Assembly (NCBI GenBank): GCA_905178155.1
Contig: CAJINV010000008.1
Location: forward strand, 558,001-622,000
Reading direction: 5' to 3'
DNA: 64,000 nucleotides
DNA from: Amoebophrya sp. A120
Taxonomy: Eukaryota; Protista; Dinoflagellata
The notes under the pieces were generated by a model that had not been told where the DNA came from, ran no database searches, and was given only the letters and a program-made list of their open reading frames with translations. Within the stretch, counting starts at the first letter, position 1; each line of letters opens with the position of its first letter. The translations under genes and the position numbers were made by a program. Below, one piece after another: positions 4,567 through 59,453 of the stretch.

Positions 4567-7500
4567 TCATCGGAAACCAGTCCCTGCTCCCGCCTCCGAA
4601 TAAGCTCCTCCAGCAATCCCAGGCTCTCGCGACGGGCCGCGATCTCCAAGTCGCCGCCCAGCAGGCTGGGAAAGCTGTTGGGCGGCGTTGCGCAGGCGAA
4701 CGACTGCCAACCTCCGATCTTCATCCACGTGGGAAAATGCATCGCCAACGCTCCCGGCGTACATGCTGATGAGGTAATCGGGCGTGAACCAAAACACGAC
4801 GGTGGAGGCCGCGCCGATAATGCCGTATACCACTGGCAGCAGCGTCAAGCAGTAGAGCAAGATCGACAAAGCAAGGAAGTTGGTGCCATGAACAGTGAGA
4901 GTGACGTTTGCACCCGTGGCCTTTAGAATCCGGACCAGAGCAACGGTGCGAGACGAAACGTCGTGTATGGAAATCAAAGCGCGTGCACTTCGCGTCCACG
5001 ATAAGGTTGATGCCGGGTCACTCCGCGGAACACTTGAAGAGTTTATTTCTGCGACATCACCCGCTTCATCCGCGTTGATGTGCTGCTTTGCCGAGCCGAC
5101 GCGTGAGATTGTTGTATTCGATCCACCTGCAGCTCTTGTTCCCCCGTCAGTCTCGCCGATGGACATACCTAGCGTCGCGAGATGGGAGGTCATCATGTTA
5201 CAGCTTGAGCAACTGTTAATTCCTTGGGCGCGTAAGTTGTTGGTATGGTGCTTGTATTTGGTGTTAGCAAAACCGATTTCGTTGTGGCTTCCGGCGATTT
5301 CTCAAAATCGAATTCGTTGTGGCTTCCGGCGATTTCTCAAAATCGAATTCGTTGTGGCTTCCGGCGATTTCTCAAAATGAACGAGGGCAACGATATCGCA
5401 CTAAAAAAAGGCCCGAGAACGCGGGCTCGAGCCGATTTGCTCAGCCGCGCCCCCACCGGTCCGCGGCCGCGAACTCGGGCCTGGTTGGTTTCCGTTTCGT
5501 TGTTTGGGGGCCTTAACCCGCCGCCCTGAAACTGCGATTTTGCGGAAAACACGGCCCGCGTTTTCTGCGAAGTCGCAGATTCAGGTCGGCGGGTTAAGGC
5601 CCCCAAACAACGAAACGGAAACCAAACAGGCCCGAGATCGCGGTCTCGCGCCGATTTGGTCGCCCTCCCCAACCCAACCCGGCGCATGACCCAACCCCAC
5701 GACTCCCCGACCCAGCTCGGGGTGCNNNNNNNNNNNNNNNNNNNNNNNNNNNNNNNNNCCCGCGGCCGACCAAATCGGCTCGAGACCGCGATCTCGGGGC
5801 GATTTGGTCATCGGCCTCTCCAGCCCGTCCAACCGCGGCCGACCAAATCGGCTCGAGACCGCGATCTCGGGACGATTTGGCCATCGGCCTCTCCAACCCG
5901 TCCAACCGCGGCCGACCAAATCGGCTCGAGGCCGCGATCTCGGGCCGATTTGGTCAGGAGCCTCACCAAAGTTGGACCAAATCGGTTCGAGACCGCGATC
6001 TCGAGACGATTTGGCCAGCAGCCTCACCAAGTCGCGGTCTCGCGCCGATTTGGTCGCCCTCCCCAACCCGTCCTGGGGCATCCACCCGCGGGCGACCAAA
6101 TCGGCGCGAGACCGCGATCTCGAGACGATTTTGTCAGCAGCCCCACCAAACCGGCTCGAGAACGCGACCTCACGCCGATTTGGTCGCCCTCTCCAACCCG
6201 GCCCGAAGTGCCAGAGCCAGCCGCCCATCCGACCTGGCCCGCAGCCCTCCCGCCTCGTCCCCAACCCCGCCCGGCGTGCCGGGCCCCATCGCTTCCCGAC
6301 CAAACCGCCACTCCGGGCCGACTTCGGCCGCTCCGACCTCTGGCCCATCCGCGAGCGACCAAATCGGCTCGAGAACGCCTGCGCCCCCCGGCCAAATCGG
6401 CTCGAGAACGCGTTCTCGGAGCGGCTTAGCCCGCCGTCCTCCCACCTCCTCCCCAACCCGGCCCGGAGTGCCAGAGGCGTCGCCCACGCGATCGCGTTCG
6501 CGCGCCCGTTTGATCCGCGGAAAAGGCGCTGCCACAAAAGCTGTCTCGCCGATGGAAATACCTAGCGTCGCGAGATGGGAGGTCATCATGGCCAGGAAGA
6601 GACACACGAAGATGCTGCACAGGAAGCATACACAGGTGACTACGGCGCAAACCTTTCCCAGCCATCTGCCACGCTGAGCTGAAATAAGGGGCTCATCCAG
6701 CCAGGCACTAGAACTTTCGGTTTGGTTTCCACCGTCCGCTCCTGCAACTCCAAAGCCAGCATTTCTGTAGTGCTCGTCCGCGTCATACGTTAGGAAGCCG
6801 TACGCGATAAAGCCCAAAAGCCCGGAGAAAACGATCCAGAGCTCCGCCGTGAGGGACAGCTCGCGCAGTTGCACTTGCACTTCAGGATCGGCAAAAAAAT
6901 AGTGCAATGACATCGCCCAAAGCCCTAGCGGCCGGAAGCGCTTTCGCCGGTTTGCGTGATCGATCGCATCTTGCACGACGTAGCGATCGTTGCCGTCTGC
7001 CACCTGCTCCTCTACTACGTGGAATTTTGTCTGCGGCTGAAAAATTCAAAAATTCACTTTTGCGACGCCGTGGAGCCACTTGCGTCTCTGCCGGGTCGCA
7101 TATAGCGTCGCGCCTGTTGTCTTTTCGTGTGATCGATTAGGAGAGGCGCTGAAGCACTAGCGCCAGATCGTAACGCGGCGCGCAATACACCCTGAAAGCA
7201 TGGCCGCTTTTGGCGTTGTTTGACATGCTCCCCAGGTCCTCCAAAAATGACCAGCGCAAAGCCCGCCGGGGCTCAGGGGAGGGGCCCAAGGGGGGCACCC
7301 CTGCTGGAGCCGCAGAAGAATTTGCGCAAATCGTCAAACGCCATTGGTAATTGCCGATTTCGGGCCTTGCGCAAATTCTTCTGCGGCCCCACCCTCCGAC
7401 CCCCCCGGGGACCCCGTCTCGTGCCGGACGGCTCTGCCGGACTCCCACAAATGTGCCAATCGAAGTACGGGGAGCCGGGCCTCCCGGGGTAGGAAGGTAG

Positions 7501-8030
7501 AAGCGTAAAAAGCGGACCATGGTCAGCTACCGTGGCTGAGGTGCTTTCCGCTGGCGGCGTCCCCGCTCAGCACCACTGCACCCGCCGAGGCCACCAGGCC
7601 TGGGACAACCCAGACAGCTTTGCCGTTACGCCCAAAAATAAAATTTTTGAATTTTTCAGCCGCAGACAAAATTCACGTTGGTATCCTCTGCCTCGACTTT
7701 ATTCGATCCGGCACTGCTGCTTGCCGCGAATCGTGATGGCGGAATGTCCAGGAGCAAGTAGCGCCTCAGGACTGCGCGGCACTCCGCGACCCCGCGATCG
7801 TACCTCGTCCGACTCTCGCTGGAGCAGCAGTCGTGGAAGCGCTTCACGCCGCGGCGCAGCCGACGAAAATGCAGATCAGCAGCAGGGGTGCTGGTTCCGC
7901 GATCTGCTTCGGTGGGACTACTCCCGCTGTTGTAGCTGCGACCAGCATTGTTGATAGGATAATGATCCTTCCCCGCATCAGCGCTTTCTTGTGTCGCATT
8001 TCGCGGATGGTGCCGCATAATGGAGAACAT
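4567..8030 (-). CDS. Uncharacterised multi-pass membrane protein interrupted by two insertion-derived introns
   Basis: ORF segments 7677-8030, 6562-7018 and 4567-5168 join in frame once 7019-7676 and 5169-6561 are removed. Several hydrophobic TM-like segments. 5' and 3' ends uncertain. Confidence 0.65.
5277..5378. repeat. Tandem repeat, 35-bp unit x ~3
   Basis: gttgtggcttccggcgatttctcaaaat recurs at 5281, 5316 and 5351. Confidence 0.95.
5467..5643. repeat. ~177-bp near-perfect palindrome (long hairpin)
   Basis: Arm ...ggtttccgtttcgttgtttgggggccttaacccgccg... pairs with ...cggcgggttaaggcccccaaacaacgaaacggaaacc... Confidence 0.9.
5759..6420. repeat. 73-bp tandem array of self-complementary units, degenerating rightwards
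   Basis: ccgcggccgaccaaatcggctcgag at 5760, 5833 and 5906. Each unit has a ccaaatcg...cgatttgg stem. Adjacent to the assembly gap 5726-5758. Confidence 0.85.
7021..7674. mobile_element. Fold-back TIR element acting as a non-canonical (GT-AC) intron, ACGT target duplication
   Basis: 33-bp TIR 7022-7054 / 7642-7674; ACGT at 7017-7020 and 7675-7678. Removing 658 bp gives EDTN|VVEEQVAD in frame. Confidence 0.88.
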
Positions 8031-11673: not shown

Positions 11674-13229
11674 TCACTTCTCCGCCAGCTCCGAACGGGC
11701 CCAGAAGACCGCGCCCGCACAGAGCACCGCCAGTCCCTGCGCAAAGAGCGTCATCTTGTGGCCCCAGAGGGGCGGAAATGGCGCCGTGAGGATGCAGAGC
11801 ACGCTGCACAGGTACGCTGTATCAAATGTAAAAATGTCTGGGTCTGGAAGATTCTGAGACTTGTCATGCATGTTTTGCATTGGCCATGATGTCTGTGATG
11901 CATGCCCTAGCATCACAGATTTTTTGAGGGCTTCGCGATGCCTATTCCGCATGACAAATGCCCTCTCCGCGTAGCAAAAATTGCATTCCCTTTGCTGCTC
12001 ATGCAATACAGATTTTTTTGGAATCCAAATTCAGCATCACAAGTTGCATTCTTCCAGACCCAGACATTTTTACATTTGATACGCTGCCATGGCGAACCAC
12101 TTGTGATTCCAGTACACAAAGCTATCAAGTGTAAAAATGTCTGGGTCTGGAAGATTTCTAGATTTGTCATGCATATTTTCCATGACACATGATGTCTGTG
12201 ATGCATGCCGTAGCATCACAGATTTTTAGAGCGCTTCCTCATGCCTATTCCGCATGACAAATGCCATCTCCGCGGAGCACAAAGTCTACTCCTCTTACTG
12301 GTCATGCAATACAAATCTTTTTCGAATCCAGAGACAGCATCACAAGTTTAGATTCTTCCAGACCCAGACATTTTTACAGTTGATAAAAGCTGTAGCAGTA
12401 CCACAGTCTGACCGACACCTTCCCGCTGATCCGTTTTAGCCTGCTCGCACAGGACTCGCCCTCCTCCGGATCGGGCTCACTTTCCGTACTTGCAACGGCA
12501 ACCGCAGGGGTGGCAAGCAGCCCAGTAGTCGCATTTGCAGGGGCCTCCCCAAGTCTCTCAGGCCGGGGTGGAATTTTTCCGAAGGCTCGCCCAAGTCCGC
12601 CGGTGAGCTGGGTAAACACTAGCAGCAACAGGACCAAATACCCGCTAGCCATGTGGACGAGGTTCGGGAAAAGCGGGTCCCAGACACCGTTGTTAAAGCC
12701 AAACTGTGACTTTCCCATCCTCGCGTGGTTGCGCCAGATAAAGCTCACTCCGACGAAAAACAAAGCCATCGCCGTGACTTGCACACCTGAATGAGTGAGA
12801 AGTGAGGATAGAGAAAAAAAATTGACTTCCGCCCCAACAGCAGTTTGCAATCGGGATTTCCTAGTCTTCACGCGAAGCGCCGTCAAAAGAATGCCTACAA
12901 AACTTCGCATATTGTAAAATACTCAAATGGACGTATTTTCTTCTGCCGACAGATGATGCGACTGCGCCGTCAGTGGAGAAATACTGGCGGGGAAAGGCGA
13001 CGAGTATGTAGCCAGCGCTCATGCAAGCGAAGCCAGAAACCATGCAGATGGGGTGCCATACAAACAGGTTGTCGAGGCCCATGTCGGCTGCAAACTTCAA
13101 AAGCACGGTAAGGATGAGCGCAACCGCGGCAGCCCCACTGCAGATGACGGTATATCGTGCCTCGTCCGGCAGGCCCTGCACCGCGTGCTTCATCCTTGCG
13201 GTGACATTCTCGGCAACCGCGGAAACCAT
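11674..13229 (-). CDS. Cytochrome b561 domain protein (4 exons)
   Basis: LFVWHPICM, YVHLSVQ, LVHMASG and reconstructed VYWNHKWF supply the four heme His. One canonical intron (12787-12922) and two TIR introns. Confidence 0.85.
11820..12081. mobile_element. IR introner (TATCAAATGTAAAAATGTCTGGGTCTGGAAG family), TSD CGCTG
   Basis: 31-bp perfect TIR; CGCTG at 11815-11819 and 12082-12086; removal restores MAA|YLCSVL. Confidence 0.95.
12123..12385. mobile_element. IR introner, same family, TSD AAAGC
   Basis: Near-identical TIR and homologous interior to 11820-12081; AAAGC at 12118-12122 and 12386-12390; removal restores CYSF|VYWNH. Confidence 0.95.
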
Positions 13230-57500: not shown

Positions 57501-59453
57501 AGGGCGCGTTGGTCCGTCAACTCCTGTTGCGCGTTCGCCAGGTTGAGGAGCTCGATCATGCTGTCAGTCACTATATTCTCCACCAGGGTGACGTGGTAGG
57601 CTCGGCGACGAGCAACTCGACCGCGTTCCAGCGCGCGGTACCACTTCGCATCGTTCACCTGCGTTGAACCGAACAACTCCTCCACCTGCAGGTCCCGCAG
57701 CTCCCCGTCGCGCGTCTTCTCCGCCTCGTTTTCCCTTTTCCGCTGCGCGTCGTAGTCTTTCATCCGCAGCCGTCGGTCTTCCCGCATGATGGCTTCGTAC
57801 CGACTGGTCTTCCAGACCAGGTAGTTGATACGCTCCTCTTCCACGCAAGGCTTCGTGAGCTGCTGCAACAAATGCTCCTGGAGGTAGGTATCCTCTTCCA
57901 TTTCGTGCTCCTTGGCGAGATCCACCAGGAATCGCCGCCGTCGCTTTTCCCGCTCTTTCCGGGCCAGGTTGCCGGAGACCTTGCTGTCCTTGATCCGTGC
58001 CAAAAAATCCTTTGCGTCCTTCAACAGCACTTCCGGAGCGGGGACCTGCGCGCTCATCGACGACATCAGGTCTTTGGCAGAAAAGGCTTTGGTTGTTCGC
58101 TGCACCAACGCCGCGCCGCCTCCGGTGCTTTCGTCGTCGTCTTCCGAACGACCGTCGTCGTAGTCTTGCTCTGTAGCTTCCTGCATGTCCAAGGGAATGC
58201 TGCTGCTCTCCGCCTCGCCGCTCGTAAACTTGCGCAGATTTCGTTCAAAGTCCGCGATGCCCTGCGTCACCTCTTGTGTCTTCGTCGCGCGAAGGTGGTG
58301 AACCGCTTGGCGCCGGCGGGTCGAGAGGCGCTGTTTGTAACTGGCCTCCAGACGCTCCCGGTGCCGCTGCCGGGAAAGGTTCGCCTTCCAGTCCATCACC
58401 CCCTGCTCGTTCCACTGGTCCATGAAGGCCCGGTTCCGCTCCACTATGTCCAGGCACACCTTGCGGTGCGTTTCGCGGTCGTCCAGCGCCTTTTCTGCAT
58501 CCACTTTGTCCATTTCCGCTGCGAGCATCTGCTGCGAGAGCTTTTCGCGTTCGAATCGGTTGTACCGCGCCTCCCGCCGCTGCAAAGTTGCGTAGGCGCA
58601 TTGGGCACGCAGTCGGTTGACGAAGAACCTGGACTCTTGCGCGTCCGCCGAGGGTTTGGTATCAAATGCAAACATGTCTGGGTCTGGAAACTTGTAATGC
58701 TGAGTGACTTAGCTAGCATGTGGAGGCCACAAATGCTGGCTCAGCATGGAAAAGTTCCTAGGCTTCTACGTGTATTCTGCATGACAAACTGCGTTTCTGG
58801 ATCACAGAAAAATAGGGCTTTTGGGTAAAAACGAGCATGACAGACTTAAGAGTCTTGCTAGCCTAGCATGACAAAACCTTTCCAGACCCAGACATATTTG
58901 CATTCGATATTTGGGAAGACGAAACGACCGCGCAAGCATTTTGGGATCTTTCACTATCAGACTATCGCTGTGCTGGCTCGCCGGCATGCTGGGACGCTGC
59001 GTCATTGCCACGCGGTCTATCACCATCTTGATCTGGTACAGCAGCTTGAGTGCGCATCCCCGCTTTTTGCTCATGATCGCTTCTGCGTCGTGCGGGAGGA
59101 AGCGAATTCTATCCTGTGCAAAAGTATCGTACTCGTATAAATGCATTACAAATTTCCTCAGCAAGAGAAATAAAATTTGTAATGCTGATTTGCCTTTAAT
59201 GCATGACTGCAATACGAGTACGATACTTTTGCAGAGGATAAATTCCGAGGTTCTTCAGATTCGGCTGCAGCTCCGTGAAGTTCGCAATTTGGTCATCGAT
59301 CAGATCGGTGTCTCGAAACCGGCCGGGGAACTCGAGCTGCTGATTGAATTTCGACAGCAGCGCACCAATCTTGTACCCGTTCGCAAGATCGGCCTCCTCC
59401 TTCGCGTCACTGCCGCCGTACTCCTGCACCCACTTCCAGAGAACCTCCGTCAT
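54528..59453 (-). CDS. SPEF2: Sperm flagellar protein 2-like (CH domain, coiled coil, adenylate-kinase-like domain)
   Basis: DLANGYKIGALL..NFTELQPNLKNLGI..ALKLLYQIK; GKPMAGKKT; GWVLSGFPAT. Two TIR introns and an intron at ~55220-55460. Further 3' exons probably extend to ~53900. Confidence 0.8.
58660..58909. mobile_element. IR introner (TGTCTGGGTCTGGAA family), TSD TTTGG
   Basis: TIR related to the 11820 and 12123 elements; TTTGG at 58655-58659 and 58910-58914; removal gives FRLPK|PSADAQ. Confidence 0.94.
59110..59240. mobile_element. IR introner (TATCCTGTGCAAAAGTATCGTACTCGTAT), TSD AATTC
   Basis: 29-bp TIR with 1 mismatch; AATTC at 59105-59109 and 59241-59245; removal gives NLGI|RFLP. Confidence 0.94.

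What the first reader, a model, noticed from the sequence alone, without database searches (positions are those of the whole stretch)
5150..6590. Intron birth by long duplication: a 48-bp repeat containing AG|GT makes a 1.39-kb insertion a perfect GT-AG intron
The coding segment MMTSHLATLG(I/M)SIGET is duplicated on both sides of a GC-rich repeat insert. Both copies contain CTAG|GTAT. Using the upstream GT (6561) and downstream AG (5169) removes the insert plus exactly one copy with no scar. The single mismatch lies in a stretch that is intronic in the upstream copy. This matches the proposed model of intron gain by duplication of a proto-splice site or staggered-break repair. 48 bp is far longer than typical transposon TSDs.
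Basis: partly seen in the sequence, partly recalled or inferred. Interest (0 to 1): 0.82.

Follow-up and report, generated by a model that had tools for sequence, protein, structure and literature searches.

The report
Long-duplication insertion spliced as leaky intron
A cut-short copy of a repeated DNA element, likely a retrotransposon, sits inside a gene of a marine parasite between two copies of 48 host letters that would allow clean removal, but assembled transcripts show sloppy, frame-breaking removal beside a probable clean one, and the gene is also broken further on, so this is likely a half-made intron rather than a perfect one.

Summary
The 48-bp repeat (one mismatch) and the AG|GT arithmetic are real, and the orthologue has one copy directly after an intact hydrophobic helix, so the scarless join would restore the ancestral protein. 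The insert is not anonymous filler. It is a truncated copy of a multi-copy non-coding element (about 4-8 copies by depth) whose copies share the end at 5198 and run on past 6543. That pattern fits target-primed retrotransposition with a long target-site duplication. A second, unrelated insert in the window has a 56-bp flanking repeat. Splicing is not perfect. The only explicit junctions in four RNA-like runs (one sample) use a cryptic GT at 6631 and land in the element's tail (5255, 5252), both frameshifting. The database model uses 6631/5251 and loses the helix. The scarless join is only implied by contig ends in 2 of 4 runs. DNA runs show the same graph shape, and template switching would mimic it. 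The gene also carries a separate 11-nt frameshift. Verdict: a new long-duplication variant of transposon-made introns, leaky and probably unselected. Interest 0.45.

The parts
6543..6590 (-). Upstream copy of the 48-bp target-site duplication; AG at 6563-6562, GT donor at 6561-6560 (GTATTT)
5150..5197 (-). Downstream copy of the duplication; AG acceptor at 5170-5169, followed by GTATGT; branch-like GTAAC at 5201-5197 formed by the element end
5198..6542 (-). Inserted non-coding element, truncated at the 6542 side, fixed end at 5198; no terminal inverted repeat beyond 7 bp, no poly(A)
   Evidence: depth and loose ends in X1, X2, X7
5198..5378 (-). Element tail: three 35-bp tandem units (5268-5378), CTAAC at 5267-5263, AG at 5252-5251; landing zone of the cryptic junctions (5255, 5252; 5250 in the database model)
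5447..5663 (.). 108-bp-arm hairpin inside the element
   Evidence: z = -10.5 for 5198-5725
5726..6036 (.). 33-N gap followed by 73-bp and 61-bp palindromic tandem units; the unit is very high copy (about 190 by depth), so the array is likely collapsed
6626..6632 (-). Cryptic donor T|GTATGC, 41 nt upstream of the duplication; used in X3, X6 and in P0001
6562..7007 (-). Exon 2 of the host membrane-protein gene (to 6632 when the cryptic donor is used)
4567..5168 (-). Exon 3 of the host gene
4739..4764 (-). Frameshift: 25 nt where the orthologue has 36; the orthologue-like C-terminus continues in another frame to about 4533
   Evidence: no gap in DNA or RNA-like contigs here
7013..7683 (-). Ordinary introner (terminal inverted repeats, 5-6 bp direct repeat), removed precisely (676 nt) in 4 of 4 RNA-like runs
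7684..8030 (-). Exon 1 of the host gene (coding part)
38751..39889 (.). Second, unrelated GC-rich insert (38807-39833) between 56-bp direct repeats with one mismatch; not tested with reads

Best explanation
A truncated copy of a multi-copy non-coding element, likely a non-autonomous retroelement inserted by target-primed reverse transcription, lies in an exon between two copies of 48 bp of host sequence; the duplicated AG|GT would let it be spliced out cleanly and probably does so in some transcripts, while other transcripts use a cryptic donor and acceptors in the element's tail that shift the frame. Inferred mechanism: two nicks 48 bp apart, cDNA synthesis from the element end at 5198 that stopped early (at 6542), and fill-in that duplicated the target. 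The AG|GT inside the duplication is likely luck (14% of 48-mers in this window hold AGGT), and the insertion likely persists because the gene is already decaying.
For: Multi-copy: depth 93-356 in the insert against 24-47 in the flanks, about 4-8 copies. Fixed end: four X1 contigs have other flanks at 5196-5198, two in X2 at 5198 (more rows were cut from both tables). Variable other end: a 630-nt contig of depth 356 runs 180 nt past 6543 in other letters (X1; same in X2 and X7), and a 10,754-nt single-copy X2 contig matches only 5218-5308. The repeat is host coding sequence, single in P0002. Explicit junctions 6632 to 5255 (X3, depth 7.9) and 6632 to 5252 (X6, depth 2.4) stop after about 20 codons. 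X4 and X6 contigs end at 6561 with the next starting at 5197, as simulated for tail RNA plus the scarless join. Separate frameshift at 4739-4764.
Against: No reverse transcriptase partner was found (40 of 70 long window ORFs scanned, 7; no whole genome held), there is no poly(A) tail, and duplications at other copies could not be read, so the class is inferred. The single-copy X2 contig could be a diverged rather than a truncated copy. DNA runs X1 and X2 show the same contig ends at 6561 and 5197 although an exit into the insert should exist, so that shape does not prove a spliced join; depth ratios do not separate the cases. X3-X6 are one sample and are RNA only by the tool's guess; X1 and X2 may be the assembly's own source. 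Each cryptic junction rests on one contig with a 29-30 nt short side.
Confidence: 0.58

Rival explanations
1. One reading: a functional, efficiently and precisely spliced GT-AG intron, born by duplication or staggered-break repair and kept because it is harmless.
For: Arithmetic is exact and restores the orthologue-like protein; contig ends in X4 and X6 fit; a branch-like GTAAC lies about 30 nt before the AG. The database model may have preferred 468 aa over 464 aa only because the longest ORF was kept (PMC7789003 section 25).
Against: Both explicit junctions use another donor; contigs that keep the element tail joined to exon 3 are in 4 of 4 runs; the insert is a repeat-family member with a fixed end; the gene is frameshifted downstream.
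Confidence: 0.13
2. The origin is as in the best explanation, but the clean join is never made by the spliceosome: it is absent (a short read-through branch was pruned by the assembler), or made by reverse-transcriptase slippage between the 48-bp repeats, or comes from cells that lost the insert by recombination.
For: Same graph shape in DNA; simulated read-through differs only by an 85-nt branch; direct repeats around structured RNA cause false introns (PMC8240250, passages); the insert folds strongly (71% paired); any crossover in the 33 identical bases gives the same product.
Against: The neighbouring GC-rich introner family does leave interior contigs in these runs; the junction position allowed by the mismatch includes the AG|GT; the ends of the insert do not pair in the predicted fold.
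Confidence: 0.3
3. The element moves as DNA: rolling-circle (Replitron or Helitron-like, fixed end and fuzzy end, variable duplications) or one-ended transposition using an internal look-alike of its end.
For: Many hairpins; fixed end begins TTA in both inserts; a 7-bp inverted repeat links the two ends of this copy (0.4% in random pairs, post hoc); Replitron insertions in Chlamydomonas have variable duplications (PMC10288648, passages).
Against: No short terminal direct repeat or RG target as described for Replitron-1; truncation of 180 nt or more; the second insert has no such inverted repeat.
Confidence: 0.2
4. Assembly artefact: one copy of the 48-mer, duplicated by scaffolding across the N gap.
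For: N gap inside a collapsed array; no listed DNA contig holds the 6542/6543 junction.
Against: The tail joins exon 3 in DNA and in 4 of 4 RNA-like runs; transcripts splice from exon 2 into the tail, so both lie on one molecule in this order; exon 3 depth (24; 43) equals exon 2 depth (28; 47) rather than exon 2 plus tail; both sides of the gap belong to one repeat family.
Confidence: 0.06

Closest known systems
Intron gain by transposon insertion into AGGT (Yenerall and Zhou 2012, PMC3443670; passages read)
   Same: Both splice sites come from a duplicated AG|GT; coding sequence unchanged if used; nearby latent sites may be activated instead.
   Different: The model assumes insertion into the 4-mer itself; here the 4-mer sits inside a 48-bp duplication.
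Polarella glacialis introner classes 13 and 14 (Roy et al., bioRxiv 10.1101/2020.10.14.339549; parts 1-2 of 4 read)
   Same: [quoted passage not shown]
   Different: 4-nt duplications, over 100 introns per class; here 48 bp, few copies, one intron-like case, leaky.
Amoebophrya introner elements (Farhat et al. 2021, PMC7789003; abstract, passages and section 25 read; Gozashti et al. 2025, PMC12130899; passages and part of Dataset S2)
   Same: Same genus by the database names of P0001 and P0002; variable non-canonical splice sites; non-LTR-derived introners are reported for A120. The element at 7013-7683 is a typical member.
   Different: Described members have 8-20 nt inverted repeats and 3-5 nt direct repeats, and only 40-1000 bp introns were analysed. 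In 32 of 58 A120 families seen, listed duplications were 2-6 bp or absent.
Non-LTR retrotransposons with long duplications: R9 (126 bp), Dualen-4b (over 50 bp) (PMC9977147, passages); Penelope-like elements (PMC8557442, passages)
   Same: Fixed end, truncated other end, long duplication of flanking host DNA.
   Different: No coding region, no poly(A), no hammerhead match here; no autonomous partner identified; those passages do not describe intron formation.
Falsitrons (Schulz et al. 2021, PMC8240250; abstract and passages)
   Same: Direct repeats around structured RNA give scarless cDNA joins.
   Different: Their repeats are 3-16 nt and were filtered to lack GU-AG; here a canonical AG|GT is present and the insert is a real DNA insertion.

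Membership tests
Canonical GT-AG intron made from a duplicated proto-splice site | AG|GT in both copies, removal keeps the ancestral protein | tested here: met
Canonical GT-AG intron made from a duplicated proto-splice site | Transcripts are joined at 6562/5168 | tested here: inconclusive
   implied by contig ends in 2 of 4 runs; same shape in DNA
Canonical GT-AG intron made from a duplicated proto-splice site | This join is the only or dominant product | tested here: not met
   junctions 6632/5255 and 6632/5252, and tail-retaining contigs in 4 of 4 runs; levels cannot be ranked from contigs
Tandem genomic duplication model | Intron made only of duplicated exon sequence | tested here: not met
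   1345 nt of foreign multi-copy DNA lie between the copies
Amoebophrya introner element (TIR type) | 8-20 nt terminal inverted repeats | tested here: not met
   7 bp at most, partly inside the duplication, unpaired in the fold
Amoebophrya introner element (TIR type) | 3-5 nt direct repeat | tested here: not met
   48 bp
Non-LTR / target-primed retroelement | Shared fixed end among dispersed copies | tested here: met
   loose ends at 5196-5198
Non-LTR / target-primed retroelement | Variable truncation at the other end | tested here: met
   family runs 180 nt past 6543; another copy matches only 5218-5308, though it may be diverged
Non-LTR / target-primed retroelement | Variable target-site duplications at other copies | not testable with these tools
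   no whole genome held; only 30-nt flanks visible
Non-LTR / target-primed retroelement | Poly(A) or simple-repeat tail at the fixed end | tested here: not met
   ends in unique sequence; 35-bp units lie 70 nt inside
Non-LTR / target-primed retroelement | Reverse transcriptase in the element or an autonomous partner | tested here: inconclusive
   no RT family among the window ORFs scanned, which did not include the insert's own N-containing frames; rest of genome not available
Penelope-like element | Hammerhead ribozyme, pseudo-LTR tandem | tested here: inconclusive
   no hammerhead match in Rfam and no CTGA.GA core in this copy; copy is truncated and some clades lack it
Replitron / rolling-circle element | Short terminal direct repeats, RG target, HUH transposase | tested here: inconclusive
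   flanks at the fixed end read TG, TG, AG and a mixed consensus; true other end and transposase unseen

The most novel reading that the evidence does not exclude
This genome holds at least two unrelated non-coding element families that make about 50-bp target-site duplications. Because such a window holds AG|GT 14% of the time (39% with GC and GA donors), they would act as generalist intron makers with no target preference, and this locus is one caught before splice sites are tuned, with clean and cryptic sites competing.
Probability: 0.2. Interest if true: 0.75.

Novelty: new variant of a known kind. Interest (0 to 1): 0.45.

Why it matters
Transposon-made introns are well documented, but with duplications of a few bases. 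A long duplication changes the odds: the element needs no splice signals and no target choice. If the family-wide pattern holds, it gives a testable natural series: insertions with and without AG|GT in the duplication, scored for splicing. The locus also shows why paper-perfect introns need reads: cryptic sites compete, the database model differs, and cDNA cannot separate splicing from template switching. As a single case in a gene that is frameshifted elsewhere, it says little about selection.

Tried and rejected
No whole genome held. No listed holder is on record as RNA. No RNA-like contig covers about 5430-6560 in X3-X6; contigs show presence only, so this is not counted as evidence. Depth ratios (out over in: 0.71-0.78 in RNA-like runs, 0.52 in DNA; out over tail 1.2-1.5 in all) do not discriminate. 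Rfam gave only generic hairpin matches below gathering scores. Exact-pattern scans found nothing: element tail and second insert in metagenome contigs, palindromic unit in viral contigs. The two inserts share no sequence. The host protein has two relatives only and no Pfam family, so the frameshift is polarised by conservation of the abandoned frame, not by an outgroup. The protein atlas did not answer. Earlier findings: none by place or sequence, one unrelated by words. A recalled 49-bp duplication for SLACS was not confirmed by the search listing and is not used. Pairing of the insert's ends as an introner-like stem was rejected (probability 0.0).

Full report
Observation. The repeat is there: 5150-5197 and 6543-6590, 48 nt, one mismatch, 1393 apart, far above shuffled windows (best score 13-17 in 20 shuffles). 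On the minus strand both copies hold CTAG|GTAT, with GT at 6561 and AG ending at 5169. The insert is 64% GC, full of palindromic units, with a 108-bp-arm hairpin and a 33-N gap.

Host gene. A search with exon 2 returned two proteins. P0001, named Amoebophrya sp. A120 by its source, matches the window in three pieces at or near 100%. P0002, named A25, is the orthologue. P0002 has one copy of the MMxSHL segment directly after a hydrophobic helix that matches window 6631-6590. So the repeat is duplicated host sequence, and the scarless join (464 aa) would restore the ancestral state. An upstream intron (7013-7683) is an ordinary inverted-repeat introner; its 676 nt are removed precisely in 4 of 4 RNA-like runs. 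Downstream, the window has 25 nt where P0002 has 36 (4739-4764). The orthologue-like C-terminus continues in another frame (44% identity over 103 aa, E 2e-19), and DNA and RNA-like contigs show no gap there. The gene is therefore damaged independently of the insert.

What the insert is. In DNA runs the flanks have depth 43-47 (X1) and 24-28 (X2), the insert 93-356, and its 73-bp unit several thousand: about 4-8 copies of the element and about 190 of the unit. Four X1 contigs have different flanks at 5196-5198, so copies share this end (19 and 9 further loose-end rows were cut from the tables). At the other side a high-depth contig runs 180 nt beyond 6543 in other letters (X1, X2, X7), so this copy stops early. 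A 10.7-kb single-copy contig matches only 5218-5308. One fixed end, variable truncation and a long duplication are the pattern of target-primed retrotransposition; duplications of 126 bp (R9) and over 50 bp (Dualen) are reported (PMC9977147, passages). This class is inferred: there is no poly(A), no hammerhead match and no RT among the ORFs scanned. A DNA-based route remains open; a 7-bp inverted repeat links the ends. A second insert with no shared sequence sits between 56-bp repeats at 38751-39889.

Is the structure real? The tail joins the downstream repeat in DNA and RNA-like contigs. No listed contig carries the upstream junction. The likely reason is pruning of a short single-copy link beside an 8-copy contig (assembler behaviour recalled, not checked). 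Exon 3 depth equals exon 2 depth, not exon 2 plus tail, so an exit must have been dropped. Transcripts splice from exon 2 into the tail, fixing the order. A mixture with some empty alleles is not excluded. X1 and X2 may be the assembly's own source.

How it is spliced. X3-X6 are one sample and RNA by the tool's guess; their precise removal of the introner and use of a GT donor fit RNA. Two explicit junctions exist, both from a cryptic donor GTATGC at 6631: to 5255 (X3, depth 7.9) and to 5252 (X6, depth 2.4). Simulated contig boundaries reproduce both and exclude the nearby canonical AG as the merge point. Both shift the frame and stop after about 20 codons. P0001 uses 6631 with the AG at 5251, in frame, replacing 14 hydrophobic residues (mean hydropathy 2.9) by 18 polar ones (-0.9). 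That model may be a canonicalised version, since the pipeline used EST2GENOME and kept the longest ORF, 468 over 464 aa (PMC7789003 section 25; inference). The predicted join is implied in X4 and X6, where an exon-2 contig ends at 6561 and the exon-3 contig starts at 5197, as simulated. X3 shows no such contig and X5 stops at 6592. Because DNA gives the same shape, and read-through differs only by a short branch, I put a scarless cDNA at about 60%. Slippage between direct repeats makes such joins in vitro (PMC8240250), so I put true splicing at 6561/5169 at about 40%. All four runs also hold contigs of element tail (to 5373) joined to exon 3.

Mechanism. Shown: duplication, multi-copy element, fixed end, truncation, cryptic junctions, frameshift. 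Inferred: nicks 48 bp apart and incomplete copying from the 5198 end; chance capture of AG|GT (14% of 48-mers); competition among splice sites in a genus reported to have loose splice signals and no detected U1; tolerance because the gene is decaying.

Comparison and novelty. Splice sites from a duplicated AGGT are a textbook route (PMC3443670) and are realised by Polarella classes 13 and 14 with 4-nt duplications. Non-LTR-derived introners are reported for A120. Searches listed no paper whose title, or the passages I then read, describes an intron from a duplication near 50 bp. In the 32 of 58 A120 family rows I saw, listed duplications were 2-6 bp or absent; the other 26 rows and supplementary files 13-14 were not seen and may bear on this, as may papers outside the library. 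Verdict: new variant of a known kind, real but leaky. Interest 0.45.

Noticed in passing
window 38751-39889: Second GC-rich insert (1027 nt) between 56-bp direct repeats upstream of a nucleotide-sugar transporter gene. Its left end repeats a 19-nt piece and the first 6 nt of the flanking repeat, suggesting a template jump or insertion into related sequence. Both inserts end in TAA on the minus strand.
   Followed up: partly
window 4739-4764: 11-nt deletion relative to the orthologue shifts the frame; about 80 conserved C-terminal codons remain open in the abandoned frame.
   Followed up: yes
window 5268-5378: In 4 of 4 RNA-like runs the 35-bp array forms a 65-nt loop contig, which in simulation arises only if no sequence enters from above 5378. 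It hints at RNA starting in the element tail, but contigs of one sample cannot show a start.
   Followed up: partly
window 5277: All four RNA-like runs read A where the window and the main DNA contig read T; likely a locus-specific variant hidden by other copies, not shown to be editing.
   Followed up: no
window 7013-7683: Typical introner with about 45-bp terminal inverted repeats and a GAGGA duplication; the removed 676 nt can be read as GA...AG.
   Followed up: yes
window 11819-12385: Two tandem 303-bp units with terminal inverted repeats, related to short inverted repeats at 58659-58909; probably another introner or MITE family.
   Followed up: no
window 5760-6036: The 73-bp palindromic unit has about 190 copies by depth, far more than the 4-8 of the element; arrays are probably collapsed or the unit also occurs on its own.
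   Followed up: no
window 6838: X3 reads T for A in exon 2 (one contig, depth 7.9); not listed in X4-X6.
   Followed up: no
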